Of a stretch of 64,000 bases of DNA, positions 33,730 to 54,923 are shown in pieces. A model generated the notes under the pieces. The model worked only from the letters and a program-made list of their open reading frames with translations, was not told the DNA's origin and did no database searches. This stretch comes from an uncultured Fluviicola sp. GTDB taxonomy: Bacteria; Bacteroidota; Bacteroidia; Flavobacteriales_D; Crocinitomicaceae. The stretch spans positions 17,845-81,844 of the forward strand of contig CAZPDT010000016.1 of assembly GCA_964585545.1 (NCBI GenBank), written 5' to 3'. Within the stretch, counting starts at the first letter, position 1. Each line of letters starts with the position of its first letter. The position numbers and the translations under genes were made by a program.

Positions 33730-34034
33730 TGCTATTTGTATTTGCGTTGTTTTGACTATATAGTGTCTGGTCGGTAACACAACAAATTCAAAATTGATTC
33801 TCTTTATAAATTCTATGGTATGGGTTTAAGTCACTATATTTCTTTGTATCCCCATTTTCAGGGCTTTTAACCACTAAATCATTATTCAAAAATATAGTAT
33901 TAAATCGTTTTCCCCATAAGGAACACCGGATCCGTCAACATGGTGTTCAGCGTTGTCCAACTTAGCGAAGCGATCTCATGACGGTAGGGAATAATCGGCA
34001 CACCGAACACTTAGTTATTTAGCGGCTGGTTTTA

Positions 34035-34271: not shown

Positions 34272-34302
34272 CTTTGCTCTGTAATCGATTATGGCAGGTG
34301 AA

Positions 34303-35526
34303 TTAAACTGGCTTGTAAAAATGAAACTTTAGCACTTTTAGAACGGTTTTGGGTAAAAATAACAGCTTTTTGAGCCGATTTAAGACATATTTGGCTATTT
34401 CCTTGGCTGTAACTCCCAGATTCACCATTCTTTTTAAGTTGTAAGCCAATGCAATTAAACCAAAATCTGCTTCTGCTCTATGAAGTCCTTTTTTGGTCAT
34501 GATGTGATCAAATCCCCACTGTCTTTTTATGGTTCCATAAGGATGTTCAACCAATGCTTGCCGTTGTTTATATAGTTTAATATTTTCGGCTACGCGATGT
34601 GCATTGTTTTGAATGTTTTGAGTGAATTCTGAGCGTTGAATAACTTTTCCGTTAATTTTTGAAGTGGTACACTCACTGCGAACAGGACATGTTTTACATG
34701 CCTTGGCTTTGTATTGTTTAAATCGGTAGTTTCTAGCTTTGTATTCGGTTTGATTTGAAATGAGTTCATTTCCTTGCGGACAAGTATAGCTGTCTGTTTT
34801 ATCGTTATAAATAAAGTTTTCCGAGTTATAAGCTGGGTTTGGAGCTTGACTGGATCTACCGATATTTGGAATGGCAACTAAGGTTTTTATTTCTAGATTA
34901 TCAGCGGTTTTAAATTCACTTCCTGTGTGATAACCTTTATCATAAAGCGCTGTAAATTTATTGGTTTTTAGAATGGTTTTTGCTCTTCGGAGCATCATTC
35001 CCATTGCCTTTTTATCGTTTTGGTTAGTGAGTTTATAGTCAAGTAATAATTTGTGTTTTGCATCAACGGTGGTTTGAGCGGTATAACAAACTTCGGTAAT
35101 TGTTCCTCTTACTATTTGATGCCTGCTGTCTAGATCGGAAGTGGAAAGTTGAGGGTTTTCGGAAGACTTATCTTCGTCTAGCTTTTCTTGTATTTGCTCA
35201 TACTTTTTACGCTGAGTCTTACGCAGTTCTACTTGTTTTTCTAACTTCTCTTTTTGATCTCCATCAGCTGTAGATAAGGCTGTATTGTGTTCTTCAAGCT
35301 TGTTGTCAATATACTCTAAATGACGTTTGATTTTCTTTTTATTGTAATTGTTCTTCTTACTGTTTTGTGCTCGTAGTTTAGTGGAGTCTCCAGCAATCAA
35401 AATTCCTCCAATAAGGTTAAAGTTTTTAGCAATTTCAACACTATAACGAAAAACACGCTTGATGGCTTTGGGGTTATCTTTTCTAAACCTGGCAATGGTA
35501 TTGTGATCTGGTTTTAGATTTTTCAA
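34303..35526 (-). CDS. IS1182-like transposase, catalytic (DDE) part
   Basis: (W)LLKNLKPDHNTIARFRKDNPKAIKRVF..., ...DKGYHTG..., a Cys cluster (CPQG...CKTCPVRSEC) and ...EHPYGTIKRQWG match the IS1182/IS5-type layout. The stop codon lies just outside the shared IS sequence. Confidence 0.75.
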   Translation of the reverse strand: MKNLKPDHNTIARFRKDNPKAIKRVFRYSVEIAKNFNLIGGILIAGDSTKLRAQNSKKNNYNKKKIKRHLEYIDNKLEEHNTALSTADGDQKEKLEKQVELRKTQRKKYEQIQEKLDEDKSSENPQLSTSDLDSRHQIVRGTITEVCYTAQTTVDAKHKLLLDYKLTNQNDKKAMGMMLRRAKTILKTNKFTALYDKGYHTGSEFKTADNLEIKTLVAIPNIGRSSQAPNPAYNSENFIYNDKTDSYTCPQGNELISNQTEYKARNYRFKQYKAKACKTCPVRSECTTSKINGKVIQRSEFTQNIQNNAHRVAENIKLYKQRQALVEHPYGTIKRQWGFDHIMTKKGLHRAEADFGLIALAYNLKRMVNLGVTAKEIAKYVLNRLKKLLFLPKTVLKVLKFHFYKPV

Positions 35527-35988
35527 AAGCCAAATTACTTCTAGATTACGATGACATTATTCACAAGTGTATATTTTTATAGGTGTTCATGAGATCGCTT
35601 TGCTAAGTTCTTTTTCTAATTGTCGGGAAGAACGCATGCGGTTCATGTAACCATAGATGTATAATTTTAATAAATCTGCGGGATTATACGGCGGTCTTCC
35701 CTGAGCAGGCAATGACTCAAATCCCATGTCATGTAAATTGAGGCTTTCTACAAACTCATCGATAAATCGTACGGAGTTGTCCTGTGGAATCATATCATCC
35801 ATACAAGTAGTGTATAAAGCCAGTTGTTGTCTGTTTTCTCCTTGTTGATATTCCATACTTAAAGATACGAAAAACCAAGGGTGGTTGGATATTTATGTTG
35901 GTAGGTTTTCAACAGAGTTATTAAGTTTTGAGACAGTCTGACGGTCTTGTATATGAAAAGTTGCGGATTTTATGCACTAACTTTTCGG
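34312..35988 (-). mobile_element. IS1182-family-like insertion sequence, copy A (about 1677 bp)
   Basis: Homology with copy B starts at CTTGTAAAAATGAAAC (34312). It fades through a diverged right end that finishes near ...CACTAACTTTTCGG (35988). The element carries a split DDE transposase. Confidence 0.7.
35587..35856 (-). CDS. IS1182-like transposase, N-terminal (DUF772-type) part
   Basis: MEYQQGENRQQLALYT...IPQDNSVRFID.FVESL...GRPPYNPADLLKLYIYGYMNRMRSSRQLEKE. It is in the same frame as the catalytic part but separated from it by TGA and TAA. Confidence 0.75.
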   Translation of the reverse strand: MEYQQGENRQQLALYTTCMDDMIPQDNSVRFIDEFVESLNLHDMGFESLPAQGRPPYNPADLLKLYIYGYMNRMRSSRQLEKELSKAIS

Positions 35989-36335
35989 ATTATAACGGAC
36001 CTTTAATTTATTCATTTTGTTTCGATTAAGCGATTAAACCGCTATTTTTTATATATTTTGTTGTACACTGGCTTTTTTCGTTCAGCTTGTCATTCAGCGT
36101 TGGCGAAAGACATACGCTGCCTGCAATTTTGGGCTTGAGCTCTGGCCGGTGCGAAACGATAGTTCACGAACACCAAAAAGTAATTTTAAAAACCGTGAGT
36201 AATTGCGAATGTGTATGGCTTTGTGCGTTGGCTTTCATCTAATTTATTTCATTTGATATAGGATTTTTACTCTCCGAAAAAACGATTCCATTCAGATAAT
36301 TTGAATCTGATGTTTTATCTGACTTTAACCATAGA

Positions 36336-39300
36336 TTAAACACTTAATATTGGCATTAATAAATCACGTAACTCAATTTTCATTGCTTTTAAGTTATTGC
36401 GTATCTCGTTGTCTTTTTCTCTGAGTTTTTGGTAGGCATTATGTATGATTGATATTTGCTCTTCTTGCGATTTACCTTCAATCGACTCAAAATCTCGTTC
36501 TGCATATTGAATAAAATGTAACCCTACTTTTTTAAACTCTTCTGGGAAATACAATTCAAAAACCATAGCATCTATTACTTCTTCAAAGGTTTCTGAAATA
36601 TGAGAGTTGGGAACGTGTTCGTTGAGTTGTTTGTCTTGAGCTAAAATGAAAAGAATGTAATCAACCAACTTTACATAAACTTCGACAGAAGTTGGCTTTT
36701 TTATAGGAATTCCTAACAATGGTTCTTTGTCAATCTGATAATTATTCCCTTGCATTTTACCTTTATATCTCAACCAAAATTTAACTAATGAAGAGTTGAA
36801 TAATGCTGTTAGATATTTTAAGTTAAATCTATTCGATTTTATCACATAGAATGTTGCAGATAAATAACTATCAAAATCAAGAAAGGTAAATATAGGTACC
36901 GAAGGACATTTTCTTTGAACAGCTATTTTTTCACCAATAAAAAAATCTTCTTTTCTTGCTCTGTGTAAACCGTATGGTTTATTATCTGATGTTATAATAT
37001 GTTGAAATTTATCTAAATGACTTTTCAAGTTAGGATAAGCATCTAATGAATTTTCCTTTTTAAAACTTGAATCTGTGTAAATAATGAACTTATCATTAGA
37101 TTTTTTTCCAAAGTATTTTTGAAAATGTCTTGTATCAGAATAATAACGCTTAAGAAAACTAATCTCGTTATCATTTAAATTTAAGCTTCCAACCTCATAA
37201 TGGTTTAAACCAAAAATACCATCTCCCACACGATAAGAGTTATCAAGTTTTGGTAACATTTTTTTTGCTACAAAATCATAATGAGGATGTATTCCATTTG
37301 CAACTTCAGAATCATTTAAAAAATGCACTTCATTGTCTAAAATTAGTTGTAAAGTATGCTCTACTTCAGGGCTGTTAAAAGTAATTAGTTTACCAACGTA
37401 ATTTTCAGAATCAAAATCTATAAAGTATTTTTTAGCAAACGTTTGATTTGTTTCAAAATTTAGAAAATCTGATAGTTGACTTTGTTTAATATCATCAATC
37501 AACACCGAATACTTTAGTGGATAATTTTCTCTTGGTGATTTTTTTTCGAAAACATATACCATTGTTTGTATTCCAGCGGTTTTAAATACTTTGTGATTCC
37601 AAAAATCGGTGAAGAGTTTAATTTCTGTTTCTTTTAAAACCTTAGTTCTAAATTTGGATGCACCTGCACTTGTTATCCAATTATTTTGAGCAATAAAACA
37701 CTCAATACCATTTAGTTTTAACAAGTCAATGCACTTGCAAGCAAATCCATACCATAAGTCCATCTTGCCTTGATAGTATGGTGAATCTCTAAATCCTTCA
37801 AAAGCTGATTTATTCGTATATTCTTTTATATACGGTGGATTACCAATCACAATATCAAAACCTTCAAAGTTTCCTTCTTTATCTAATAGATTAGGGAACT
37901 CAAAACGCCATTCTACAGCTTCTTTAAATATTTTGGCTTCTACTCGGTCTTTTTTCTCTTGTTCTAGTTTGGCTATTTCTTTCCTTAGTTTGGCGTTTCT
38001 ACGTTTTTCAGCAGCCGTTTGTTTGTGTTCAAATAAGCCTACGTTAATGTATTGGTTTAACTCATATTTTTTGTCATTCAGTTTTTTAGATTCCTTACTA
38101 GAAAAGTAGGTTTTAAAAGCACTTTTTACATCTTCTATAAGTTGCTTAAACTCTTCCTTTTTGTCGTGATTGGCTTCGTGCATATAGTCATTTACCAATG
38201 CCTTGTATTTATCTAAATCTACTTTATCTTCTTCTGCACGCCCTTTATTAAATTCTTTAAAAACTTGGTCTATAGGCGTGTCTAATTCATAACGACTTAT
38301 TAAAGAATTACCGCAAATAATTTTATAATCTAAGTTTGGTAATGGTCTTGGTGTAGGTTCGTCCACAACTAAAGACAACCAAAATCGTAATTGGGCAATA
38401 TCTACAGCACCTTCTTCAATATCTACACCATAAATAGAGTTTTCTATAATGCGTTCTTTTACCCTAGCAGGACTCCAAGCTTCGTAACCTTGCTCAAATG
38501 CAATGAGGCCTTTTAAGGCAAAAATTTCGTGTAATAATCCCATTGGGAATGCACCAGAACCAATGGCAGGGTCCAAAATTTTTACTTTGCTTAACAATGC
38601 GTTGATTTCCTCTAGTTCATTTTCTGTTAGTTTACCCTGTTTTTTTTGCTTTACGAAAATGCTAATATCTTCTTTAGCTGTAGTTGAAAGATGCGTATGC
38701 AAGTATTCTATTAAAGACTCTTGTGTCATATAATGCACAATTTCTTTAGGTGTATAAAACGCACCTTTGTCTTTGTTGTCTTCCAGTAAATTCTCAAAAA
38801 TGTGTCCTAACATTTCAGGGTCAACACCAATGTCTTGGTCATCAGGACTACTTTCGTCAACCGTAAAATTGTATTGGCTGAAAAAGGCTAGTAAATCTAT
38901 AAATCGTTGTGGTTCAAATTGTATGTCTATTGGCTCTACATTATCTTTTTCAAACAGACCTCCGTTTAAGTATGGGATACGTGAATTAGTAACCGAGAAA
39001 ATATCATTGTTTTCAGAACGGTCAGCATTTAAGGTTTCAAAGAATAAAGGTGCTAAAGCTTTTTCGTAGAAATTGTTTTTGTCTGGAAATTCTTCAAACA
39101 ATCGAAATAAAAAGTCTAGTTGTCCTTCGCCCCAATCTTTGTCTAAAGGCACACCCATCCAACCTTTTTTCTGTAGGAAGAACAAAAACACAATACGACC
39201 TAAAAACTTTTTCACAAAATCACTGACTAAATGTTCTGCTTTTTTGTGTTTGTCTTCCAAAGTACCATTGGTAGATACTTGGTTAAGAAAATGGGTAAAT

Positions 39301-39935
39301 GCTTTTGGGTTATCTACAATATAACTTACTAAGGTTTCGTATTGATGGAAATAACCATTGTAAAACTCTTTGGATAGTTTTTCTACGGAGAATGCTTTTA
39401 AAATATCTTCGAGTGTAAACTCTCTAGAATTGATCTGATTAAAAAGCCATTCAAACTGGTTTACAGCTGTTTTTACGGTTTCATTTTGACCTAGAAGGTA
39501 CGTATATCGTTTTGGATGCGTTTCAGTCTTCACTTCGTTGTTATCGGCATCCCAATACAATGATTTAGAAATAAAAGTAAATCGCCAATCTGAAGCTTTT
39601 TTGTTGTAATAGGTAATGATAGCACCATCTATATATCCAAAGCCAATTTCGCTAGACATTATGTTTCTCAGTCCAACTCTATTTCTGGTTACTTGTTGAT
39701 TTTCTTTCAATTCAACTTCGTAGAATTTAATTACTCTATCATCTGACAGGGTAATATCACCATATTCCCAAATGTGTTCTACATCTTTGTGTTTAACCAA
39801 TGAATCGTCTTTTAAATCCACTGGTGTTTCAAAGTAACTTGCAGAAATATCTCTAAAAAGTTCTTTTAAAAATCCCTTCCAAATTGAGCTTTGGTATGGA
39901 GATTTGAAAATATTATGTAATGTATCTTTATTCAC
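36336..39935 (-). CDS. Eco57I/MmeI-like (type IIG/IIL-like) N6-adenine DNA methyltransferase with a C-terminal target-recognition domain and a possible N-terminal D..ExK nuclease motif
   Basis: GTG start, 1199 aa. Motifs: GAFYTPKEIV (motif X), ILDPAIGSGAFP (motif I), YGVDIEEGAVDIAQLRFWL, CGNSLI and EWRFEFP...FDIVIGNPPYIKEY (motif IV NPPY). The TRD is TaqI_C-like (YLTALFNSSLVKFWL). The N-terminus GDITLSDDRVIKFYEVELK resembles the D-x9-ExK arrangement of MmeI. Confidence 0.75.
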   Translation of the reverse strand: MNKDTLHNIFKSPYQSSIWKGFLKELFRDISASYFETPVDLKDDSLVKHKDVEHIWEYGDITLSDDRVIKFYEVELKENQQVTRNRVGLRNIMSSEIGFGYIDGAIITYYNKKASDWRFTFISKSLYWDADNNEVKTETHPKRYTYLLGQNETVKTAVNQFEWLFNQINSREFTLEDILKAFSVEKLSKEFYNGYFHQYETLVSYIVDNPKAFTHFLNQVSTNGTLEDKHKKAEHLVSDFVKKFLGRIVFLFFLQKKGWMGVPLDKDWGEGQLDFLFRLFEEFPDKNNFYEKALAPLFFETLNADRSENNDIFSVTNSRIPYLNGGLFEKDNVEPIDIQFEPQRFIDLLAFFSQYNFTVDESSPDDQDIGVDPEMLGHIFENLLEDNKDKGAFYTPKEIVHYMTQESLIEYLHTHLSTTAKEDISIFVKQKKQGKLTENELEEINALLSKVKILDPAIGSGAFPMGLLHEIFALKGLIAFEQGYEAWSPARVKERIIENSIYGVDIEEGAVDIAQLRFWLSLVVDEPTPRPLPNLDYKIICGNSLISRYELDTPIDQVFKEFNKGRAEEDKVDLDKYKALVNDYMHEANHDKKEEFKQLIEDVKSAFKTYFSSKESKKLNDKKYELNQYINVGLFEHKQTAAEKRRNAKLRKEIAKLEQEKKDRVEAKIFKEAVEWRFEFPNLLDKEGNFEGFDIVIGNPPYIKEYTNKSAFEGFRDSPYYQGKMDLWYGFACKCIDLLKLNGIECFIAQNNWITSAGASKFRTKVLKETEIKLFTDFWNHKVFKTAGIQTMVYVFEKKSPRENYPLKYSVLIDDIKQSQLSDFLNFETNQTFAKKYFIDFDSENYVGKLITFNSPEVEHTLQLILDNEVHFLNDSEVANGIHPHYDFVAKKMLPKLDNSYRVGDGIFGLNHYEVGSLNLNDNEISFLKRYYSDTRHFQKYFGKKSNDKFIIYTDSSFKKENSLDAYPNLKSHLDKFQHIITSDNKPYGLHRARKEDFFIGEKIAVQRKCPSVPIFTFLDFDSYLSATFYVIKSNRFNLKYLTALFNSSLVKFWLRYKGKMQGNNYQIDKEPLLGIPIKKPTSVEVYVKLVDYILFILAQDKQLNEHVPNSHISETFEEVIDAMVFELYFPEEFKKVGLHFIQYAERDFESIEGKSQEEQISIIHNAYQKLREKDNEIRNNLKAMKIELRDLLMPILSV

Positions 39936-39937
39936 GA

Positions 39938-40948
39938 TTATTTTTCTTTTTTGATTTTGGATTCTAGGGCTTTTAATTCTTCTAAATCTTTTTTATCCGC
40001 TTGATTTGCTTCGTATGCTTTTCGCTTACTATCAAAAGACTTATAAATCTCTTTTACTTTCTTTTCCATCATAGCCTTACTAATGCTGCCTTTGCCTTTA
40101 AGCACTTTTTTATCATTAAACTCAAGAATAGCATCTACGTTTTTACGCCAGAAATTCATTGTTATATCCATTCTGTTTTTGGCTCTCAGCTCTGCGGTTT
40201 CAAGGAATATTACAACAAGTCTGTTTAAGGTGTCAATTTCATCTTCGGTTAAATAGTTTTTAGCAATGAAAATATCTTGTTTACGCACGATGCTTCCTTT
40301 CCAATTGGTTAAGGCCATATTAGGTTGGTTGGCATCGGCTCTTGACAAAATTATTTCGGCAGCAGTTTTATTTGTTACCGCATACAATAATTTATTTTGT
40401 GTTTCGGCAAAAAACATTTGCGTGGCTTTATCAGTTGGGTCATAATCGCTAGAAAGGGCAAATAAATCTCTTACTTTTTGATAAAAACGTTTTTCCGAAG
40501 CACGTATATCACGAATGCGAGCGAGTAATTCATCGAAATAGTCTGGTCTACCATCAGGATTTTTAAGACGTTCATCATCAATTATAAATCCTTTTATAAT
40601 ATATTGCTTTAAGTTTTGGTTTGCCCAAATACGAAATTGTGTTCCTCGTTTACTTCTCACCCTAAAACCAATGGCTAAAATCATTTCTAAACTGTAAAAA
40701 GTAACTTCGTAATTTTTGCCGTCTTGGGCAGTTGTCAAGTAATTCTTTACAACTGACTCCTCACTTAACTCATTGTCATTCAATATGTTTAATATGTGTT
40801 GGCTAATGTTTTGTTTAGAGGTGTCAAAAAGTTCAGCCAATTGATTTTGATTCATCCAAACTTGACCATCTTTGGCATATAAGGATACGGATGCTTTTCC
40901 GTCTGCCGTATTGTAAATAATTAAATTTTGTTCGTTTTTTTGTTCCAT
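39938..40948 (-). CDS. RhuM-family (Virulence_RhuM) protein
   Basis: LIIYNTADGKASVSLYAKDGQVWMNQNQLAELF.TSKQNISQHI.NI, YSLEMILAIGFRVRS.RGTQFR.WA and FYQKVRD.FALS.DY...... are typical RhuM blocks. Its stop lies 2 nt before the methyltransferase start. Confidence 0.75.
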   Translation of the reverse strand: MEQKNEQNLIIYNTADGKASVSLYAKDGQVWMNQNQLAELFDTSKQNISQHILNILNDNELSEESVVKNYLTTAQDGKNYEVTFYSLEMILAIGFRVRSKRGTQFRIWANQNLKQYIIKGFIIDDERLKNPDGRPDYFDELLARIRDIRASEKRFYQKVRDLFALSSDYDPTDKATQMFFAETQNKLLYAVTNKTAAEIILSRADANQPNMALTNWKGSIVRKQDIFIAKNYLTEDEIDTLNRLVVIFLETAELRAKNRMDITMNFWRKNVDAILEFNDKKVLKGKGSISKAMMEKKVKEIYKSFDSKRKAYEANQADKKDLEELKALESKIKKEK

Positions 40949-40960
40949 AATAACAATAAT

Positions 40961-43900
40961 TTAACCAGTGAATGATTCTGATATAATTATTTGAGGTTTT
41001 GAACTCAAAGGTGTCTTTGGTCGCTTTTTGGGTTCGTCATCAAACAATTCTTCCTTGATTTCTTCCAGTGGATAGCTCTTAATGATTTTCATCATTTCAT
41101 TAAATTCATCCACACGCTTCATCTTTTTAGAAACGCTTTCCTTTTTTAGCTTATTGATTTCTCGTGGAAGTTTTTGAAAACGACCTATTTCAATTGCTTT
41201 TTTTGCTTCTAATAATAACTCTTTTTCATCTTCAGAGGCATATTCTTGAAGAATAGTACCTTTAATAACTGCAATAGCTCTTTTTTCATTTGGTCCTAAT
41301 TTTACACTTGCTTTAGTACCTAAACTTAATAGGCTTTGGTCTTCCACAAATGAATCTAATGCTGTGTTAATCTGCTCATAATGGAATTCAGGCAGTTCTG
41401 TAGCTCGTTCTGTAATTTCAGCTTTATAAAGTCTTGCTGCTTCTACAAAGGTTAATTCTTCAATAGAATTATCAGTGTGCATTAAATAGTAAGCATCTCT
41501 TTTTTTGTTCTTTATGTATGCAATAGTTTGTCCTTTTACCGCTTTGTTTTTACGACCACATCTTGCTCTTCTCGGAATTTTATTCTTAATATATTGGTAT
41601 TGGTCAGGATTCTCTTCTCGGAATTTTCTGAGATAGTTTAAATATTCAAGACGTTCGTCTTTTTCTTCCTCTGGCAGTTGCTCAAACAAACCATAAGAAT
41701 CAAAATCCTCATTAGTAGAGTAAATTTGGCTATCCTCACCTAATGCTGAATGAAAAGCTTGTAATTTCATATAAGCTTTTTTATTCAATTCAATTTCTGT
41801 GTCGGCTTGTTCTGTAGGGAAGAAGTTAAAAATGTTTATAAATTGATAAGGTGTACCAACTCTATTTACACGTCCTATACGTTGCATTAGACGAGTTGCA
41901 TTCCAAGGAATATCATAATTGACAATAGTGTTGGAACGATGGAGGTTAACACCTTCCGCCAATACTTCTGTTGTGATAATTATATCGTAATCATTTTTAG
42001 CATCTGCAATGGTTTGATTAGCATCAAAGTTTTCGGCAATTGTATCTGTTAAATCTTTTGCATTTGAAGAATCAACACTTAAAATTCTTGAAAAACCATC
42101 ATTTTCCAATCTATTCATTAAATAGGCAGTTGTTTCTTTAGATTCAGAGAAAACAACCAACTTTTTACTTTTATTCACTTCTTCATTTAGTAAATCTGTT
42201 TTAAGCTTTTCAATGAATCTGTCATATTTAGGGTCGTAATCACCTATATTATCCCATTGTTCGACAAGTTTTTTAAGAATGATGTCATCATTTCTAATTC
42301 CCTCTTTAAATTCTTCTGAAAACTCCTCAATACCAAAAGCCTGAATTTTTGACGGGTCTTCAGCGTTTAAAAGTAATTCATCAAGTATTGCTTCATCATC
42401 ATTTAAAATATATTCACTTACACCCAATTTCGGTGCAATGTATATTTTACCATTTTCAATCATTTTGAGCATTGCCCTGTTAGCATCATAGAATCGATTA
42501 AGACTCATTTTAAAAGCGTGAAAAGAACTATCTATCCTTTTTACAAGCAAAATTTTCATAATCACAGCCAATTGCTCTGATATTCTATTGGCTTGATTGG
42601 GATCCACACCAGTTGTCTTTTTGTATTGCTTTTTGGCTTCATCACTCATATATTTTATCGCCTGATAACGATAATAGCTTAAACCACCTTTACTGTCCTT
42701 GACAATTTTTATAGTTTGGTCGTAAAGGTCATTTACCTCTTCATTTAATTGATAAAGTATTTGTTTAGGTGGAATTATGTCAGGAAAAGTAAATCCTTGT
42801 TCATTTATATCTTCTAAATAGCTTGTTGTGTTTTTAATGTCAGTTCTAGTTCTTCTAACGATGATTGGTTCGAGAACTTTGTTTCTTATTTCTTCATAAA
42901 TTTCTTTAACACCTTGAGCTATTTTAATGTGGTCTTGCTCTTTTTTAAGTTTATTGTATTTATCAATTAAGGGTCTAAAAAAATGCTGTAAGTTACCAAC
43001 TTCAAGAGTTGATTGTTTAGAATCTTGAAAAAGATATAATTGGTTTCTAATATCCTGAGGTCTGTTATTTAGTGGAGTAGCTGTAACAAGAATTACTTTT
43101 TTCTTGTCAGACAAATCGTTTCCTTTTCTTTTTCTTTTAGTCTTACATAGTTTCTGTAATTGATGAAACATTTCTGATTCATCAGAACGAAATTTATGAG
43201 CTTCATCAACTATAATTAAATCATAATCCTCAGGATGTTTAATTTTATGTAACGAACCATTTGTTACAAAGTCAATGTTCGGCACTTCAAAATCACGAAT
43301 TGTTTTTTTCCAACTTTTCTCGACTGCTGGAGGATAGATTACCAGTGTTTTAGTTCTATAACCATTTGCGAAGTAGAATTTTTTTGCAATGATGGTTGCA
43401 ATAATGGTTTTACCTAGCCCAACTACATCTGCTAAAATAAACCCTGAGTGTTTCAGTAATTTGGAATATCCATCATTTACAGCATCAATTTGGTAGGCGA
43501 GTTTTTTATAACCTTTTGGTAAATCGGTTATGGACTCTGGGTCATATTCAATAGATTTCCCAAAATATTCAATGAGTAACTTTATGTATATTTCAAAAGG
43601 AGTAAACTGGTCGCTTAGATGAGTTGTGTTTTTTACTTTTTGAACTGTTTCAGGCAAAATGTCTATTGCCTCTTTCCATAAATCCTCAAATGTTTTTGTA
43701 GCGAAAGCCACATCATCATAATAAGGTAATAAAACATTGAATTCAAAGTTTTTTTCAATTCCAGATACGGAAAGGTTTGAAGAACCTGTAATTACTCTTC
43801 CTGGATTATGTTCATTCCATAGAGCAGGTCTGAAAATGTATATTTTGGCGTGAATATTTTTGTTTGGATGAGCTTTAATTTCAATTTTCCCTTTGGTAAT

Positions 43901-44245
43901 ATCATCAACAAACTGAACTATACCATCTTCTACATTTTTTGAATAATCAGATTGCTCAATATCACTTTTCAAGTCTCTCATAAACTCTTCTCTAGTGACA
44001 TTTGTATTAAAATTAAATTCAAGTCCTTTTCTAGCTGCTTCACTTATTAGATGGTCAACATCGATTCCAACTAAAATTCGAATCTTTTCGACATCTTTTA
44101 AATATTCTCTAATTCTGAAATAACCTGATGAACGAAAATAACCTACAAGAGCATCAAAGACATTTACTTCTGTATGCTCAAATATTCCCTTAAATTTATT
44201 TAAAAGAGTATTGTCCTCTTTGTTGGTGAAAAACTTTGTACTCAT
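40961..44245 (-). CDS. PLD-family nuclease domain fused to an SNF2/DEAH superfamily-2 helicase
   Basis: The N-terminal single HKD-like motif is NIHAKIYIF...VITGSSNLSVSG. Helicase motifs: I LADVVGLGKTIIA, II IIVDEAHKFR, III LVTATPLNN, V TEVLAEGVNL, VI PWNATRLMQRIGRVNRVG. 1094 aa. Confidence 0.8.
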   Translation of the reverse strand: MSTKFFTNKEDNTLLNKFKGIFEHTEVNVFDALVGYFRSSGYFRIREYLKDVEKIRILVGIDVDHLISEAARKGLEFNFNTNVTREEFMRDLKSDIEQSDYSKNVEDGIVQFVDDITKGKIEIKAHPNKNIHAKIYIFRPALWNEHNPGRVITGSSNLSVSGIEKNFEFNVLLPYYDDVAFATKTFEDLWKEAIDILPETVQKVKNTTHLSDQFTPFEIYIKLLIEYFGKSIEYDPESITDLPKGYKKLAYQIDAVNDGYSKLLKHSGFILADVVGLGKTIIATIIAKKFYFANGYRTKTLVIYPPAVEKSWKKTIRDFEVPNIDFVTNGSLHKIKHPEDYDLIIVDEAHKFRSDESEMFHQLQKLCKTKRKRKGNDLSDKKKVILVTATPLNNRPQDIRNQLYLFQDSKQSTLEVGNLQHFFRPLIDKYNKLKKEQDHIKIAQGVKEIYEEIRNKVLEPIIVRRTRTDIKNTTSYLEDINEQGFTFPDIIPPKQILYQLNEEVNDLYDQTIKIVKDSKGGLSYYRYQAIKYMSDEAKKQYKKTTGVDPNQANRISEQLAVIMKILLVKRIDSSFHAFKMSLNRFYDANRAMLKMIENGKIYIAPKLGVSEYILNDDEAILDELLLNAEDPSKIQAFGIEEFSEEFKEGIRNDDIILKKLVEQWDNIGDYDPKYDRFIEKLKTDLLNEEVNKSKKLVVFSESKETTAYLMNRLENDGFSRILSVDSSNAKDLTDTIAENFDANQTIADAKNDYDIIITTEVLAEGVNLHRSNTIVNYDIPWNATRLMQRIGRVNRVGTPYQFINIFNFFPTEQADTEIELNKKAYMKLQAFHSALGEDSQIYSTNEDFDSYGLFEQLPEEEKDERLEYLNYLRKFREENPDQYQYIKNKIPRRARCGRKNKAVKGQTIAYIKNKKRDAYYLMHTDNSIEELTFVEAARLYKAEITERATELPEFHYEQINTALDSFVEDQSLLSLGTKASVKLGPNEKRAIAVIKGTILQEYASEDEKELLLEAKKAIEIGRFQKLPREINKLKKESVSKKMKRVDEFNEMMKIIKSYPLEEIKEELFDDEPKKRPKTPLSSKPQIIISESFTG

Positions 44246-44520
44246 AAGGTTTTAATAATTTTTTTTAGACCATCTTTAAGGTATGTTAATTCTCCTAAAT
44301 CCGTAATTACCGCTGATTGAATGAATTCCAATTCGACTTCTTTTTCTGTCTTATCAAGAGAATCTGCCAATGTTGGAATCATATCTATAGTGGCTCTCCT
44401 TTCGTTCCTTTCAATCTTACTTAATATCGATGTATCGATATCAAGTGCAGCTGCAACTTTACGTAAAGGCAAACCTTTCTCTTCTCTTAAATTTCTAATG
44501 TATTCTCCAAATGATTTCAT
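44242..44520 (-). CDS. XRE-family helix-turn-helix regulator (controller-protein-like)
   Basis: FGEYIRNLREEKGLPLRKVAAALDIDTSILSKIERNERR is an HTH_3 pattern. Its stop overlaps the helicase start by 4 nt. Confidence 0.75.
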   Translation of the reverse strand: MKSFGEYIRNLREEKGLPLRKVAAALDIDTSILSKIERNERRATIDMIPTLADSLDKTEKEVELEFIQSAVITDLGELTYLKDGLKKIIKTL

Positions 44521-44549
44521 CTTGATAAATTTATTTAGACGATTCTGTC

Positions 44550-44562
44550 CAAATGTACATTT
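44550..44562 (-). promoter_or_regulatory. Candidate -7 promoter box (TACATTTG) embedded in a perfect 12-bp palindrome AAATGTACATTT
   Basis: On the minus strand TACATTTG fits the Bacteroidota -7 consensus TAnnTTTG, about 30 nt upstream of the HTH ATG. AAATGTACATTT (44551-44562) is its own reverse complement. Confidence 0.4.
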
Positions 44563-44590
44563 ATTATTTCGATTTTAAACGTGAGCGGTG

Positions 44591-44656
44591 GGAAAAATTA
44601 AGCTCTTTTGTTTTTTAAGGAAGGGCAGAGGGAAGGCAAAAAACAAATGTGCTTAA
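44591..44656 (-). terminator. Long imperfect hairpin followed by a T-run on the minus strand, between IS copy B and the operon
   Basis: The arms TTAAGCTCTTTTGTTTTTT and AAAAAACAAATGTGCTTAA pair at 17 of 19 positions. The loop is 21 nt and G/A-rich. The minus strand continues with TTTTTCC. Confidence 0.4.
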
Positions 44657-44748
44657 TATGTGGCTGGTTTCGTTTCGTAGCTTGTGTACAACGGCAGTCT
44701 GTCTCATAACCAACCATAAAACCTATAAAAATAAGAAACTTTGCTGAT

Positions 44749-45993
44749 TCACAGCATTTTCAACCCCAAAACTAATGACTTGTAAAAATGAAACTTTAGC
44801 ACTTTTAGAACGGTTTTGGGTAAAAATAACAGCTTTTTGAGCCGATTTAAGACATATTTGGCTATTTCCTTGGCTGTAACTCCCAGATTCACCATTCTTT
44901 TTAAGTTGTAAGCCAATGCAATTAAACCAAAATCTGCTTCTGCTCTTTGAAGTCCTTTTTTGGTCATGATGTGATCAAATCCCCATTGTCTTTTCATGGT
45001 TCCGTAAGGGTGTTCAACTAATGCTTGCCGTTGTTTGTAAAGTTCAAGGTTTTTAGCTACACGTTTGGCGTTGTTCTGTATGTTTTGAGTAAATTCAGAA
45101 CGTTGAATGACTTTTCCGTTAATTTTTGAAGTGGTACACTCACTGCGTACAGGACAGGTTTTACACGCCTTGGTTTTGTATTGTTTAAATCGGTAGTTTC
45201 TAGCTTTGTATTCGGTTTGATTTGAAATGAGTTCATTTCCTTGCGGACAAGTATAGCTGTCTGTTTTATCGTTATAAATAAAGTTTTCCGAGTTATAAGC
45301 TGGGTTTGGAGCTTGACTGGATCTACCGATATTTGGAATGGCAACTAAGGTTTTTATTTCTAGATTATCAGCGGTTTTAAATTCACTTCCTGTGTGATAA
45401 CCTTTATCATAAAGCGCTGTAAATTTATTGGTTTTTAGAATGGTTTTTGCTCTTCGGAGCATCATTCCCATTGCCTTTTTATCGTTTTGGTTAGTGAGTT
45501 TATAGTCAAGTAATAATTTGTGTTTTGCATCAACGGTGGTTTGAGCGGTATAACAAACTTCGGTAATTGTTCCTCTTACTATTTGATGCCTGCTGTCTAG
45601 ATCGGAAGTGGAAAGTTGAGGGTTTTCGGAAGACTTATCTTCGTCTAGCTTTTCTTGTATTTGCTCATACTTTTTACGCTGAGTCTTACGCAGTTCTACT
45701 TGTTTTTCTAACTTCTCTTTTTGATCTCCATCAGCTGTAGATAAGGCTGTATTGTGTTCTTCAAGCTTGTTGTCAATATACTCTAAATGACGTTTGATTT
45801 TCTTTTTATTGTAATTGTTCTTCTTACTGTTTTGTGCTCGTAGTTTAGTGGAGTCTCCAGCAATCAAAATTCCTCCAATAAGGTTAAAGTTTTTAGCAAT
45901 TTCAACACTATAACGAAAAACACGCTTGATGGCTTTGGGGTTATCTTTTCTAAACCTGGCAATGGTATTGTGATCTGGTTTTAGATTTTTCAA
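44749..45993 (-). CDS. IS1182-like transposase, catalytic part (copy B)
   Basis: 414 aa and near-identical to copy A apart from a cluster of substitutions (AKRVAKNLELY vs AHRVAENIKLY, and others). The C-terminal tail differs because it is read from flanking DNA. Confidence 0.75.
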   Translation of the reverse strand: MKNLKPDHNTIARFRKDNPKAIKRVFRYSVEIAKNFNLIGGILIAGDSTKLRAQNSKKNNYNKKKIKRHLEYIDNKLEEHNTALSTADGDQKEKLEKQVELRKTQRKKYEQIQEKLDEDKSSENPQLSTSDLDSRHQIVRGTITEVCYTAQTTVDAKHKLLLDYKLTNQNDKKAMGMMLRRAKTILKTNKFTALYDKGYHTGSEFKTADNLEIKTLVAIPNIGRSSQAPNPAYNSENFIYNDKTDSYTCPQGNELISNQTEYKARNYRFKQYKTKACKTCPVRSECTTSKINGKVIQRSEFTQNIQNNAKRVAKNLELYKQRQALVEHPYGTMKRQWGFDHIMTKKGLQRAEADFGLIALAYNLKRMVNLGVTAKEIAKYVLNRLKKLLFLPKTVLKVLKFHFYKSLVLGLKML

Positions 45994-46456
45994 AAGCCAA
46001 ATTACTTCTAGATTACGATGACATTATTCACAAGTGTATATTTTTATAGGTGTTCATGAGATCGCTTTGCTAAGTTCTTTTTCTAATTGTCGGGAAGAAC
46101 GCATGCGGTTCATGTAACCATAGATGTATAATTTTAATAAATCTGCGGGATTATACGGCGGTCTTCCCTGAGCAGGCAATGACTCAAATCCCATGTCATG
46201 TAAATTGAGGCTTTCTACAAACTGATCGATAAATCGCACTGAATTGTCCTGTGGAATCATATCATCCAAACAAGTAGTGTATAAAGCTAACTGCTGACGG
46301 TTTTCTCCTTGTTGATATTCCATACTTAAAGATACGAAAAACCAAGGGTGGTTTGACATTTATGTTGGTAGGTTTTCAACAGAGTTATTAAGTTTTGAGA
46401 CAGTCTGACGGACTCGGGTATGAGTAGTTGCGTGGGTTAGCACTTAACTTTGCAAG
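44778..46456 (-). mobile_element. IS1182-family-like insertion sequence, copy B (about 1679 bp)
   Basis: The left end CTTGTAAAAATG... and right end ...AACTTTGCAAG form an imperfect terminal inverted repeat (CTTGTAAA / TTTGCAAG). It has the same split transposase as copy A. Confidence 0.7.
46054..46323 (-). CDS. IS1182-like transposase, N-terminal part (copy B)
   Basis: The ATG at 46323 gives MEYQQGENRQQ.... It differs from copy A at two residues (CLDDM, IDQFV). Confidence 0.75.
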   Translation of the reverse strand: MEYQQGENRQQLALYTTCLDDMIPQDNSVRFIDQFVESLNLHDMGFESLPAQGRPPYNPADLLKLYIYGYMNRMRSSRQLEKELSKAIS

Positions 46457-46467
46457 TACGCGCCAGA

Positions 46468-46491
46468 CTGAAAATCCTCGCGGATTTTCAG
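46468..46491. other. Perfect 10-bp-stem hairpin just outside the integrase/IS91 element
   Basis: CTGAAAATCC-TCGC-GGATTTTCAG, 35 nt from the element end. Confidence 0.6.
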
Positions 46492-46596
46492 AAGTAGGCG
46501 AGAGCAAGCAATTACTTATAGCCATTGTTGAACTCAACCTTCGGTAGCTAAAGTACAAAATTCACCGTACACATCAATAACATAAAACTTATTGAT

Positions 46597-47520
46597 ATGG
46601 AAAAGAAAAAGTATACATGGTTAAATTCCAAGCCCAATAGTGCGAAAACACTGATTGAGAGAGCAAAAAAAGAAGTGCCATTTTTCAGAGAACACTATTC
46701 CAAGTTTGAAGAACAAATGACTATTGGAGGTTATTCCCAAAGCACCTTGTTTAATTATTCGAGAGCAGTTGCGAAGGTGAGTTTACATTTTAAAAAGTCT
46801 TTATTGGATTTAGATCCAGACGAAGTAAATCAGTGGTTGTTTTTATTGGCTAAGGAAAAAACAGCGAGTTCAACGTATTTTAAACATACGGTTTATGGAC
46901 TTCGTTTCTTCTTTCGCTTGTATGAAATGGAAGATAGAGTGCTCAAATTACCTACCATTAAGAACGATAGAAAACTTCCTGTTGTTTTTTAAAGAGAAGA
47001 GCTTCGCATACTTTTTAATACACCACAAAGATTAAAACAACGGTTTTTATTTTCGCTTATTTATTCTGGAGGACTTCGTGTAGGTGAAGTTTGTCGATTA
47101 AAAATTACGGATATCGACAAAGATAGAATGCAAATTCGAGTTGTCAAAAGCAAGGGAAATCACGACCGATATGTTCCTCTTAGTAAATTGATTTTAATTG
47201 GTTTGGATAAATACCTGCGCAGTTCACTTCCTGTAACTTATCTTTTTAATGGTAAAATTAAAGGAGAACCTTTGGGACATGGTGCGGTTCAGCAGTCTTT
47301 TCGATTGGCATTAAAACAAGCTAATATTCTGAAGGAGGCTTCTGTTCATACATTGAGACATTCTTTTGCAACTCATTTACTGGAAGATGGAGTTGATATT
47401 GTTACTATAAAAGAACTTTTAGGACATGTTAATATCGAAACGACAATGATGTATCTGCATGTGGCAAAGTGCAATAGAGTCGAAGCATGTAGTCCGTTTG
47501 ATTCACTTTACAAGAAGTAA
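46597..47520 (+). pseudogene. Tyrosine recombinase/integrase interrupted by an in-frame TAA at 46990-46992
   Basis: The N-terminal SAM-like domain (131 aa) ends in KLPVVF-TAA. The same frame continues REELRILFNTPQRLKQRFLFSLIYSGGLRVGEVCRL... (catalytic Arg), HTLRHSFATHLL, LLGH and MMYLHV (catalytic Tyr). Confidence 0.75.
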
Positions 47521-54922: not shown

Positions 54923-54923
54923 T

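What the first reader, a model, noticed from the sequence alone, without database searches (positions are those of the whole stretch)
36336..44562. IS-bracketed four-gene operon (XRE regulator, PLD-nuclease/SNF2-helicase fusion, RhuM, 1199-aa Eco57I/MmeI-like methyltransferase): candidate non-canonical ATP-dependent restriction or defence system
Seen in the sequence: four minus-strand genes are packed with a 4-nt overlap (HTH/helicase), a 12-nt gap (helicase/RhuM) and a 2-nt gap (RhuM/MTase), so they form a single operon. The helicase protein carries one HKD-type PLD motif (HAKIYIF...GSSNLS) followed by a full SNF2/DEAH motif set. The MTase has FYTP, DPAIGSGAF and GNPPY motifs, a TaqI_C-like TRD, and an N-terminal SDDRVIKFYEVELK that could be a D-x(n)-ExK nuclease placed as in MmeI. 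Established knowledge: type IIG/IIL enzymes are single-polypeptide R-M-S proteins. Type ISP enzymes fuse nuclease, helicase, MTase and TRD. Class 1 DISARM combines an SNF2 helicase (DrmD), an N6A MTase (DrmMI) and a PLD nuclease (DrmC), but needs DrmA and DrmB. RhuM genes are commonly embedded in type I RM loci. Inference: this locus fits none of those definitions. It has no DrmA/DrmB, no HsdR/HsdS and no Mod/Res pair. Instead it pairs a potentially self-sufficient IIG-like enzyme with a second, translocase-linked PLD nuclease, a RhuM module and a controller-like HTH. That suggests a split ISP-like or minimal DISARM-like system, or a layered RM plus abortive-infection unit.
Basis: partly seen in the sequence, partly recalled or inferred. 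Interest (0 to 1): 0.8.

Follow-up and report, generated by a model that had tools for sequence, protein, structure and literature searches.

The report
Helicase-nuclease and methylase restriction pair
This is an IS-flanked, partly eroded copy of a widespread but unnamed and untested bacterial DNA-defence cassette, in which a motor-driven nuclease is almost always encoded next to one particular family of DNA methyltransferase; the RhuM gene is only a passenger.

Summary
The four minus-strand genes, their domains and the two flanking IS copies are all present as described. Comparison with 160 related loci changes the interpretation.

- **Core pair.** The conserved unit is PLD-SNF2 helicase-nuclease plus a 1,100-1,400 aa MmeI/PglX-like N6-adenine methyltransferase. 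The methylase follows the helicase in 64/66 helicase-anchored loci. The helicase precedes the methylase in 58/59 methylase-anchored loci.
- **Methylase N-terminal domain.** It marks this family and tracks the helicase in sequence (rho 0.71, against 0.22 for the specificity domain). Its D-x9-ExK motif is complete in only 10/68 members, so a self-sufficient type IIG enzyme is unlikely.
- **RhuM.** It is a clean 1-kb insertion into a variable "guest" slot.
- **HTH.** It is a facultative regulator, detected in about a quarter of loci.
- **Missing gene.** The nearest relative (helicase 97% identical) carries a further gene, an ABC/SMC-type ATPase. This window has lost it through a 1.84-kb deletion that leaves about 26 codons.

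No defence-system model defines this composition. I read it as an ATP-dependent, Type III/ISP/MANTIS-like restriction system. It is a new variant of a known kind, present here in reduced form.

The parts
44242..44520 (-). XRE/HTH_3 regulator (92 aa). Controller-like and facultative in the family.
   Evidence: Pfam HTH_3, E = 3.9e-10. PADLOC hits to HTH_VI, capH and control-protein models. It overlaps the helicase start by 4 nt. A homologue was detected next to the helicase in 20/73 and 9/46 loci.
44521..44694 (-). Conserved 5' leader with a Bacteroidota-type -7 box (TACATTTG, about 44549-44556) and an operator-like inverted repeat (GAC-N6-GTC) just before the ATG.
   Evidence: Read from the sequence. 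Alignment with the regions upstream of HTH genes in 8 distant loci shows shared blocks. Identity to L067 is 73.5% over 151 nt. Similarity to the closest relative L161 extends as far as 44694. A regulatory function is inferred, not shown.
40961..44245 (-). PLD (single HKD)-SWI2/SNF2 helicase-nuclease, 1094 aa: the predicted ATP-driven translocase and DNA-cleaving subunit.
   Evidence: Pfam PLDc_2 / RE_NgoFVII at aa 109-190, plus SNF2-rel_dom and Helicase_C. Catalytic H132, K134, N157, Walker A, DEAH and motif VI are invariant. The top Foldseek hits are all SWI2/SNF2 remodellers, although the model is low-confidence. At least 7985 homologues were found at E <= 1e-10.
39938..40948 (-). RhuM-family gene (336 aa): a guest insertion, not a core component.
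   Evidence: Pfam Virulence_RhuM, E = 1e-110; PADLOC PDC-S05. It is a clean 1.03-kb insertion replacing the 17-nt helicase-MTase spacer of L161. The same slot holds ORF6N, DUF1016/YhcG, Fic/DOC, SLFN_AlbA_2, KilA-N, Bro-N, DUF433 or 23S_rRNA_IVP genes in other loci.
36336..39935 (-). MmeI/PglX-like gamma-class N6-adenine MTase, 1199 aa. Layout: N-terminal alpha/beta domain (aa 1-170), helical spacer, Eco57I-type MTase with motifs DPAIGSGAF and NPPY, then a TaqI_C-like specificity domain. Predicted modification and target-recognition subunit.
   Evidence: Pfam Eco57I, N6_Mtase, MmeI_Mtase and TaqI_C. Best PADLOC hit is REase_MTase_IIG; PglX and DrmMI are weaker. Closest solved structures are CamA and BrxX/PglX. 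A homologue lies immediately downstream of the helicase in 64/66 loci.
39426..39935 (-). MTase N-terminal domain (aa 1-170). It has a PD-(D/E)xK-like alpha-beta-beta-beta-alpha-beta topology and is the signature of the helicase-linked MTase family. Proposed coupling domain.
   Evidence: AF2 model, pLDDT 82; no significant PDB fold match. Conservation: D65 96%, E75 66%, K77 34%; full triad in 10/68. It always sits at the N-terminus of roughly 1050-1450 aa proteins or fragments of them, with 718 cluster representatives. Its pairwise identities track the helicase (rho 0.71).
36624..37822 (-). Specificity-domain (TRD) segment of the MTase, swapped relative to the closest relative.
   Evidence: There is no nucleotide similarity to L161 across this segment, while the flanks are 88-91% identical. 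TRD identities are almost uncorrelated with the helicase (rho 0.22).
36245..36331 (-). Remnant (last ~26 codons) of a deleted ABC/SMC-type ATPase gene.
   Evidence: tblastn with ATPase proteins from several loci hits only this spot. Window 36201-36325 matches L161 10582-10706 at 94%, with 1.84 kb missing in between. The intact gene (~640 aa; SMC_N, AAA_23, AAA_15) follows the MTase in L002, L003, L081, L161 and L162; in L028 the contig ends about 330 nt into it.
34309..35984 (-). IS1182-family element, copy A, downstream of the MTase.
   Evidence: blastn between the two copies gives 96.8% identity over 1677 nt. NCBIfam transpos_IS1182; Pfam DUF772 and DDE_Tnp_1_6. The transposase frame is interrupted by two in-frame stops.
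44776..46451 (-). IS1182-family element, copy B, upstream of the HTH gene.
   Evidence: It has the same orientation as copy A and carries the same in-frame stops. No target-site duplication was recognised.

Best explanation
The locus is a member of a widespread, unnamed, ATP-dependent restriction-modification-like system. Its obligate core is two proteins.

**Proposed mechanism.**
1. The large MmeI/PglX-like MTase reads a short, probably asymmetric, sequence with its specificity domain. It methylates adenine there to mark host DNA.
2. On unmodified DNA, the MTase recruits or licenses the PLD-SNF2 protein through its conserved N-terminal domain. That domain is a degenerate nuclease-like fold.
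3. The PLD-SNF2 protein has only one HKD motif per chain, so it must dimerise to form one active site. It uses ATP-driven dsDNA translocation and cuts the DNA.

**Accessory parts.** The HTH protein is a facultative controller that probably autoregulates from an operator next to a Bacteroidota -7 promoter box. RhuM is a passenger sitting in a guest-gene slot between the two core genes.

**State of this copy.** Compared with its nearest relative it has gained RhuM, exchanged its specificity domain, and lost the downstream ABC/SMC-type ATPase by deletion. It is bracketed by two IS1182 copies.

**Shown versus inferred.** Shown: gene content, domains, motif conservation, linkage, and the insertion, deletion and swap events. 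Inferred: all biochemical steps.
For: **Linkage in both directions.** The MTase lies within 3 kb downstream of the helicase in 64/66 helicase-anchored genome loci. The helicase lies upstream of the MTase in 58/59 MTase-anchored metagenome loci.

**Coupling domain.**
- The MTase N-terminal domain is always N-terminal in ~1050-1450 aa proteins or fragments of them; 718 representatives match at E <= 1e-3.
- Its pairwise identities track those of the helicase: rho 0.71, against 0.40 for the MTase core and 0.22 for the specificity domain.

**The nuclease triad of that domain is not conserved.** It is complete in 10/68 members. E75 is V or I in close relatives that are otherwise near-identical around it.

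**The PLD and helicase catalytic residues are invariant**. The helicase core resembles SWI2/SNF2 dsDNA translocases.

**MTase loss is tolerated.** Two loci keep an uninterrupted helicase reading frame with no MTase (L001, L062). This fits an MTase that is required for restriction.

**Published precedents.**
- A dimeric HKD-SF2 effector acts downstream of an MTase-containing recognition complex in MANTIS (bioRxiv 10.64898/2026.09.23.753747).
- A P. intermedia MTase with an upstream SNF2 helicase methylates GGYGAB (m6A) when expressed alone in E. coli (PMC5608340). A locus of the same layout in sister species P. nigrescens has an MTase 39% identical to this one.

**RhuM as guest:**. **ATPase deletion:**. 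**Promoter and operator:**
Against: - There is no experimental test of restriction for any member.
- The window's own MTase keeps an intact D65-x9-E75-x-K77, so its own nuclease activity cannot be excluded.
- The N-domain model found no structural match, so both the "degenerate PD-(D/E)xK" label and the "coupling" role rest on topology and co-variation only.
- The co-variation analysis does not correct for phylogeny.
- About half of the related loci, and all the closest relatives, carry the ABC ATPase. If it is essential in this clade, the window's copy may be non-functional.
- The helicase structure model is poor (pLDDT 62). Dimerisation is inferred by analogy.
Confidence: 0.6

Rival explanations
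1. Layered defence. The MTase is a self-sufficient type IIG/IIL restriction-modification enzyme that cuts with its own N-terminal PD-ExK nuclease. The PLD-SNF2 protein is a second, separate or downstream effector, for example one that degrades DNA processively after the first cut.
For: The D65-x9-E75-x-K77 motif is intact in the window's protein and in 9 other family members. The predicted topology of aa 1-150 fits a PD-(D/E)xK core. The best PADLOC hit is REase_MTase_IIG over aa 1-382. Pfam finds MmeI_Mtase, and homologues carry the MmeI_hel domain.
Against: K77 is conserved in only 34% of members and E75 in 66%. Close relatives with 84% helicase identity have V or I at position 75. The domain is found essentially only next to the helicase-nuclease (58/59) and co-varies with it. 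Neither would be expected of an autonomous enzyme. The REBASE-derived "IIG" profiles are largely based on predictions.
Confidence: 0.2
2. BREX/DISARM-like exclusion without cleavage. Methylation marks self, and the helicase-PLD protein blocks replication or remodels foreign DNA rather than acting as a classical restriction nuclease.
For: The MTase is related to PglX and DrmMI, and the helicase to DrmD, BrxH and DpdE, though all scores are far below family cut-offs. Cleavage by MANTIS could not be reconstituted in vitro.
Against: The PLD catalytic H, K and N residues are invariant. No PglZ, BrxC, DrmA or DrmB gene is present in the window or recurs in the 80 genome loci.
Confidence: 0.1
3. In this genome the cassette is a decaying remnant. 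Loss of the ABC ATPase, together with IS activity, has disabled restriction and left at most a methyltransferase.
For: A 1.84-kb deletion removes the ATPase, which is present in every close relative whose sequence extends far enough (L002, L003, L081, L161, L162). IS copies lie 255 nt upstream and 351 nt downstream. A related locus, L001, has lost the MTase altogether.
Against: The helicase, MTase, HTH and RhuM reading frames are all full length, with catalytic motifs intact. About half of family loci lack the ATPase or have McrBC in its place, so it is probably accessory. The promoter-leader region is retained.
Confidence: 0.3

Closest known systems
MANTIS / Gao_RL (BREX-related type 2; MtsABCD)
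   Same: The effector has the same architecture: an N-terminal single-HKD PLD nuclease fused to a Swi2/Snf2-type SF2 ATPase, which is dimeric in MtsD. It acts together with an N6-adenine MTase that recognises a short asymmetric site. Some operons carry a small repressor.
   Different: MANTIS requires a DUF499 AAA+ ATPase (MtsA) and a small co-regulator (MtsB; the papers give its domain as DUF3870 or DUF3780). Its MTase is of the DUF1156 type. None of these is present here. This MTase is Eco57I/MmeI/PglX-like with its own N-terminal domain. The optional ATPase in relatives is ABC/SMC-type. The helicase scores only 134 bits against a cut-off of 1100 on NCBIfam NF042964.
Type III restriction-modification (Mod + Res)
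   Same: It has two subunits. An MTase that carries the specificity domain directs an SF2 ATPase-nuclease. One-strand methylation of asymmetric sites is expected. Loss of the MTase is expected to abolish restriction (my knowledge of the family).
   Different: Res is a Rad25/ResIII-type helicase with a C-terminal PD-(D/E)xK nuclease, and Mod is a beta-class MTase. Here the motor is SWI2/SNF2, the nuclease is an N-terminal PLD, and the MTase is gamma-class and about 1200 aa. The gene order is reversed.
Type ISP enzymes (LlaGI, LlaBIII)
   Same: The same set of activities is present: nuclease, SF2 translocase, gamma-class N6A MTase and specificity domain. Hemimethylation of an asymmetric site is likely.
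   Different: ISP enzymes are single polypeptides with an Mrr-like PD-(D/E)xK nuclease. Here the activities are split over two genes and the nuclease is PLD-type.
MmeI-family type IIL/IIG enzymes and BREX PglX
   Same: The MTase layout is the same: an N-terminal nuclease-like domain, a helical spacer, an Eco57I/MmeI-type MTase and a TaqI_C-like specificity domain.
   Different: MmeI acts alone and has a conserved D-x-EXK nuclease (from memory). Here the triad is not conserved and the protein is tied to a helicase-nuclease. PglX works with PglZ, BrxC and other BREX proteins, which are absent here.
Class 1 DISARM (DrmD, DrmMI, DrmA, DrmB, DrmC)
   Same: It combines an SNF2 helicase, an N6A MTase and a PLD nuclease. 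There are weak HMM relationships to DrmD and DrmMI.
   Different: The defining DrmA and DrmB (DUF1998) genes are absent. PLD and SNF2 are fused here. The DrmD score is 149 bits against a cut-off of 610.
SauUSI (type IV) and CglI/NgoAVII (ATP-dependent type II)
   Same: A PLD nuclease is coupled to an SF2 ATPase motor. Pfam reports an RE_NgoFVII PLD-domain hit. MtsD is described as SauUSI-like.
   Different: SauUSI targets modified DNA through its own recognition domain and has no MTase partner. CglI/NgoAVII place the PLD and the ATPase on separate R and N proteins, with cytosine MTases (from memory).
Pin17FIII locus of Prevotella intermedia 17F, and the loci tabulated by Milman et al. 2023
   Same: These are probably members of the same family. 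Pin17FIII is a 1117-aa "type IIG" MTase with an upstream SNF2/RAD54 helicase and inverted partial MTase cassettes (PMC5608340). Milman et al. list a Cj0031-like type II RM CDS adjacent to a PLD+SNF CDS, with programmed inversions (PMC9881135). A P. nigrescens locus of the same layout has an MTase 39% identical to the window's and a PLD-SNF2 helicase.
   Different: Those loci shuffle specificity domains by inversion. The window has no inverted cassette. Neither paper defines or tests the pair as a system. Membership of Pin17FIII itself could not be checked by sequence.

Membership tests
Type IIG / IIL (MmeI-like) restriction-modification enzyme | Single polypeptide with an MTase, a specificity domain and an active nuclease domain | tested here: inconclusive
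   The MTase and specificity domains are present. The D-x9-ExK motif is present in the window's protein, but the full triad occurs in only 10/68 family members and E75 is lost in close relatives. The fold search gave no match.
Type IIG / IIL (MmeI-like) restriction-modification enzyme | Acts autonomously, with no obligate partner gene | tested here: not met
   A PLD-SNF2 gene lies upstream in 58/59 MTase-anchored loci, and the MTase lies downstream in 64/66 helicase-anchored loci.
Type ISP | Nuclease, SF2 helicase, MTase and specificity domain in one polypeptide, with an Mrr-type nuclease | tested here: not met
   The activities are on two separate ORFs and the nuclease is PLD-type.
Class 1 DISARM | DrmA (helicase) and DrmB (DUF1998) core genes | tested here: not met
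   No such genes were found in the window flanks. No recurrent DUF1998 or YprA-like cluster appears in the 80 loci.
Class 1 DISARM | DrmD and DrmMI family membership by curated HMM | tested here: not met
   NCBIfam DISARM_DrmD scores 149 bits against a cut-off of 610. PADLOC DrmMI gives only a partial hit, E = 7e-23.
BREX (types 1-6) | PglZ plus BrxC/PglY with a PglX MTase | tested here: not met
   NCBIfam PglX models score 104 bits or less, against cut-offs of 400 or more. No PglZ or BrxC gene is present in the window or among recurrent neighbours.
MANTIS / Gao_RL (BREX-related type 2) | DUF499 ATPase (MtsA), MtsB co-regulator and DUF1156 MTase | tested here: not met
   These are absent. The MTase here is Eco57I/MmeI-type. 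The recurrent ATPase in relatives is ABC/SMC-type.
MANTIS / Gao_RL (BREX-related type 2) | N-terminal HKD nuclease fused to a Swi2/Snf2 helicase as effector | tested here: met
   PLDc_2 at aa 114-190, followed by SNF2-rel_dom and Helicase_C. The architecture is as described. The sequence relationship to the curated model is weak.
Hma / BREX-related type 1 | SNF2 helicase with a C-terminal PD-(D/E)xK nuclease (DUF3883), a DUF1156 MTase and a DUF499 ATPase | tested here: not met
   Only a partial HmaA hit, on the helicase C-lobe. The other components are absent.
Type III restriction-modification | Beta-class Mod MTase plus a Res subunit (ResIII helicase with a C-terminal PD-(D/E)xK nuclease) | tested here: not met
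   The MTase is Eco57I/MmeI-type (gamma-class by my knowledge of that family; motif I precedes NPPY). The motor's structural matches are SWI2/SNF2 remodellers, and the nuclease is an N-terminal PLD. The resemblance is organisational only.
Composite transposon | Two IS copies bracketing cargo, with a target-site duplication at the outer ends or the same unit found in other contexts | tested here: inconclusive
   Two direct IS1182 copies, 96.8% identical, are present. No target-site duplication was recognised. Both transposase frames carry in-frame stops. The only other assembly with this sequence ends at the IS edges.

The most novel reading that the evidence does not exclude
This is an unrecognised class of ATP-dependent restriction system, spread through Bacteroidota and present in some other phyla. 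In it, an MmeI-like enzyme's former nuclease domain has been repurposed as an adaptor. The adaptor hands unmodified sites to a dimeric PLD-SNF2 motor nuclease. The operon also has a built-in slot that captures interchangeable guest defence genes (RhuM, Fic/DOC, DUF1016, Schlafen-like, and KilA-N/Bro-N/ORF6N proteins), and often an ABC-ATPase third subunit.
Probability: 0.45. Interest if true: 0.65.

Novelty: new variant of a known kind. Interest (0 to 1): 0.55.

Why it matters
The defence-system, Pfam and NCBIfam models tested here label the MTase "type IIG" and give the helicase no system assignment (NCBI names its homologues "helicase-related protein"). An obligate two-gene system that is common in gut and environmental Bacteroidota is therefore probably being miscounted as a single-protein enzyme plus an orphan helicase.

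If the model holds, it adds a minimal, genetically tractable relative of MANTIS, DISARM and type ISP. That would allow study of how an MTase-bound recognition event activates a PLD motor nuclease.

It would also explain why many "type IIG" genes in REBASE-style surveys might show methylation but no cleavage. And it gives a clear case of a guest-gene slot inside a restriction operon.

For this particular window the practical message is more modest. The copy is real and mostly intact, but reduced and IS-flanked.

Tried and rejected
- **Fold search of the MTase N-terminal 400 aa against the PDB.** No significant match (best E = 2e-3, TM below 0.2). The fold could not be assigned by structure.
- **AlphaFold model of the helicase.** The 13-sequence alignment was too shallow (pLDDT 62). 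Only the SNF2 core gave meaningful matches, and SauUSI did not appear in the top 50.
- **Sequence search of the PDB.** It did not recover MmeI for the MTase; CamA and BrxX/PglX were the nearest.
- **Rfam search of 33000-48000.** Nothing at E <= 0.1, so the conserved leader is not a known RNA family.
- **Target-site duplications and clear terminal inverted repeats of the IS copies.** None recognised.
- **Programmed inversion of the specificity domain.** Considered and rejected for this window: there are no inverted MTase or specificity-domain cassettes, unlike the Prevotella locus.
- **RhuM as a core component.** Considered and rejected.
- **DISARM, BREX, Hma or MANTIS membership.** Considered and rejected.
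- **Krishnan et al. 2020 on ABC ATPases (PMC7544218).** Not held in the library, so I could not check whether the ATPase-containing version is described there.
- **Homologue search with the 400-aa MTase N-terminal query.** It listed only short, fragmentary proteins. This limited its use for naming the family.

Full report
**1.

They are the HTH (44242-44520, 92 aa), PLD-SNF2 (40961-44245, 1094 aa), RhuM (39938-40948, 336 aa) and the MTase (36336-39935, 1199 aa). The spacing is a 4-nt overlap, a 12-nt gap and a 2-nt gap.

Pfam confirms each domain:
- HTH: HTH_3.
- Helicase: one PLDc_2 / RE_NgoFVII-type domain at aa 109-190, followed by SNF2-rel_dom, DEAD, ResIII and Helicase_C.
- RhuM: Virulence_RhuM, E = 1e-110.
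- MTase: Eco57I, N6_Mtase, MmeI_Mtase and a borderline TaqI_C.

In an alignment of 13 homologues (62-84% identical), several catalytic residues are invariant: the PLD H132, K134 and GSSN157, the Walker A GLGKT, DEAH, and motif VI.

Two IS1182-family elements bracket the genes in direct orientation, at 34309-35984 and 44776-46451. They are 96.8% identical. The wider context is chromosomal. An ATP synthase operon ends at 33375. On the other side lie an IS91-type transposase, a beta-lactamase-fold gene and a heavy-metal efflux cluster.

**2. No defined system has this composition**

- PADLOC models call the MTase REase_MTase_IIG, with weaker PglX and DrmMI hits.
- The helicase's best PADLOC hit is an "HKD+Snf2" candidate (C3a139). 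It also has partial DrmD, HmaA, BrxH and DpdE hits.
- RhuM is the candidate family PDC-S05.
- All NCBIfam hits fall far below their curated cut-offs: DrmD 149 bits against 610, PglX 104 against 500, and the PLD anti-phage protein 134 against 1100.

**3. The real unit is a gene pair**

The helicase-nuclease family is very large; 7985 of the 8000 candidates scored had E <= 1e-10.

I fetched 80 genome loci anchored on the helicase. A homologue of the window's MTase lies on the same strand within 3 kb downstream in 64 of the 66 loci that have enough sequence.

I then anchored on the MTase N-terminal region in metagenomes. The helicase lies upstream in 58 of 59 loci with at least 3 kb of upstream sequence.

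The family is mainly found in Bacteroidota. Some members come from bins labelled Ignavibacteria, Chlorobiota, Fibrobacterota and Atribacterota, and related MTase fragments come from cyanobacteria.

**4. The MTase is probably not a self-sufficient type IIG enzyme**

Its first 170 residues form a family-specific domain. In a scan of 1.8 billion representative proteins, 718 match at E <= 1e-3. In every listed hit the domain sits at the N-terminus, and full-length hits are about 1050-1450 aa.

The AlphaFold model has pLDDT 82 and an alpha-beta-beta-beta-alpha-beta topology compatible with a PD-(D/E)xK core. Foldseek finds no significant PDB match.

Across 68 helicase-linked MTases, D65 is kept in 96%, E75 in 66% and K77 in 34%. 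The full triad is present in 10/68, including the window. In close relatives (helicase 84% identical) the surrounding sequence is almost unchanged, yet E75 is V or I.

The domain's pairwise identities follow those of the helicase far better than the rest of the MTase does. Spearman rho is 0.71 for aa 1-200, 0.40 for the MTase core and 0.22 for the specificity domain. This analysis is not corrected for phylogeny.

My reading is that this is a degenerate nuclease-like domain that now couples the MTase to the helicase-nuclease. That is an inference. For the window's own protein, residual nuclease activity cannot be excluded.

**5. RhuM is a passenger**

In 22 of the helicase-anchored loci, 0.2-2 kb separates the helicase from the MTase. 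Where that gap contains a gene, it is one of the following:
- ORF6N
- DUF1016/YhcG
- Fic/DOC with a partner gene
- SLFN_AlbA_2-HATPase_c_4
- KilA-N
- Bro-N
- DUF433
- 23S_rRNA_IVP proteins

The closest relative of the window is L161/L162, with a helicase 97% identical. It has only a 17-nt spacer at this position, and the window's RhuM is a clean 1.03-kb insertion into it. RhuM homologues also turn up elsewhere in about 15 loci.

**6. The HTH is facultative but has a conserved control region**

A homologue was detected next to the helicase in 20/73 and 9/46 loci. This is a lower bound, because the protein is short.

Upstream of the window's HTH there is a Bacteroidota -7 box (TACATTTG), followed by a GAC-N6-GTC inverted repeat just before the ATG. 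These blocks, and others further upstream, are shared with distant loci. I infer autoregulation of the kind seen with restriction-system controller proteins.

**7. The window's copy is a reduced derivative**

I clustered all ORFs from the 80 genome loci. This revealed a third recurrent gene directly after the MTase: an ABC/SMC-type ATPase of about 640 aa. It carries SMC_N, AAA_23 and AAA_15, with weak PADLOC hits to mad3 and PtuA.

- The ATPase is present in 35/59 genome loci and 18/46 metagenome loci with enough downstream sequence.
- It is present in all the window's closest relatives.
- A different subset of 13 loci has McrB and/or McrC there instead.

The window lacks the ATPase but keeps its last ~26 codons immediately after the MTase stop, at 36245-36331.

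DNA alignment with L161 shows three differences:
- a 1.84-kb deletion that removes the ATPase;
- replacement of the specificity-domain segment (36624-37822), which shows no nucleotide similarity while its flanks are 88-91% identical;
- the RhuM insertion.

Similarity to L161 ends about 80 nt before IS copy B and about 115 nt before IS copy A.

**8. Mechanism**

What is shown:
- two co-inherited genes with intact catalytic motifs;
- a single HKD motif per helicase chain;
- a SWI2/SNF2-type motor;
- an MTase with a rapidly exchanging specificity domain;
- tolerated loss of the MTase in two loci whose helicase reading frame is uninterrupted (L001, L062).

What I infer:
- The MTase recognises and hemimethylates a short asymmetric site.
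- On unmodified sites, it licenses a dimer of the PLD-SNF2 protein through its N-terminal domain.
- That dimer translocates on dsDNA and cuts.

Published parallels support this. MtsD of MANTIS is a dimeric HKD-SF2 protein with one shared PLD site, and it acts downstream of an MTase-containing recognition complex (bioRxiv 10.64898/2026.09.23.753747). The same HKD+Swi2/Snf2 effector is described for BREX-related type 2 systems (PMC12839542).

**9. Prior sightings**

Johnston et al. describe the P. intermedia 17F "type IIG" Pin17FIII with an upstream SNF2/RAD54 helicase. They show that the MTase gene alone gives m6A at GGYGAB in E. coli (PMC5608340).

A locus of that layout in P. nigrescens has a PLD-SNF2 helicase, an MTase 39% identical to the window's (including most of the N-terminal domain), and inverted partial MTase cassettes.

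Neither paper defines or tests the pair as a defence system, and I found no paper that does.

**10. Verdict**

- The finding is real and the gene linkage is strong.
- The system is unnamed and untested.
- It is conceptually a variation on the Type III / ISP / MANTIS / DISARM theme, and it has been noticed in passing before.
- It is a new variant of a known kind, of moderate interest.
- The specific copy in this window is trimmed (no ATPase), carries a guest gene and a swapped specificity domain, and sits between two IS copies. Whether that unit has moved as a composite transposon could not be decided.

Noticed in passing
window 44521-44694 (minus strand); L060, L063, L067, L069, L078, L121 upstream of their HTH genes: The ~150-nt leader upstream of the HTH gene is conserved at the nucleotide level across loci whose helicases are only ~52% identical. 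Shared blocks include CACATTT-AGCACATTTGG, CCAAAAGAGCT-AAATTTTCCC, a -7 box and an operator-like repeat. There is no Rfam match.
   Followed up: partly
window 44242-44520 versus L001/L002/L028 and L061/L063/L069/L078/L121: The window's HTH protein is 71-76% identical to HTHs of a distant helicase clade, but only 49-55% identical to the HTHs of L001, L002 and L028, whose helicases are 84% identical to the window's. This suggests the regulator-leader module has been exchanged by recombination somewhere in this lineage.
   Followed up: no
window 35527-35610 and 45994-46076 (inside both IS1182 copies); also 33959-33981: Both IS copies carry the same ~20-codon stretch with two in-frame stops, which splits the transposase into a DUF772 ORF and a DDE ORF. 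A 23-mer from that stretch recurs inverted, with one mismatch, outside any IS copy; none is expected by chance.
   Followed up: partly
window 36624-37822: The specificity-domain segment of the MTase has no nucleotide similarity to the 97%-related locus L161, while both flanks are 88-91% identical. This is a cassette-like exchange that should change the recognised sequence.
   Followed up: partly
L001 (10001-14314) and L062 (49-7756): In two loci the helicase-nuclease reading frame is uninterrupted but no MTase is present. In L001, RhuM follows the helicase directly and is 84% identical to the window's. This shows the helicase is tolerated without its MTase.
   Followed up: partly
Guest slot between helicase and MTase in L018, L039, L063, L074 and the window: Several of the interchangeable guest proteins share KilA-N, Bro-N or ORF6N-type DNA-binding domains. 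RhuM itself has a weak Bro-N hit (E = 0.0018). This hints at a common logic for what gets captured in the slot.
   Followed up: no
L006, L018, L020, L022-L024, L026, L031, L032 (downstream of the MTase): In a distinct subset of loci, a McrB-like GTPase and McrC directly follow the MTase, in the position the ABC ATPase occupies elsewhere. This may be a type IV module backing up the system.
   Followed up: no
L164 (P. nigrescens NZ_CP082843.1) 15023-18646: Two inverted partial Eco57I-domain ORFs, with an AAA_14/DUF4143 ATPase gene between them, lie downstream of the MTase. This layout fits phase-variable shuffling of the specificity domain and the three motifs reported for P. intermedia 17F.
   Followed up: partly
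window 33433-33729 (+), 47829-48683 (+), 49004-50119 (-), 51104-59923 (-): Neighbouring genes: a thioredoxin-like ORF (WCGPC), an IS91/Y2-type transposase, a beta-lactamase-fold protein, and a P-type ATPase plus CusCBA-like heavy-metal efflux cluster. Together with the IS copies, these mark a mobile-element-rich stretch next to the ATP synthase operon.
   Followed up: partly
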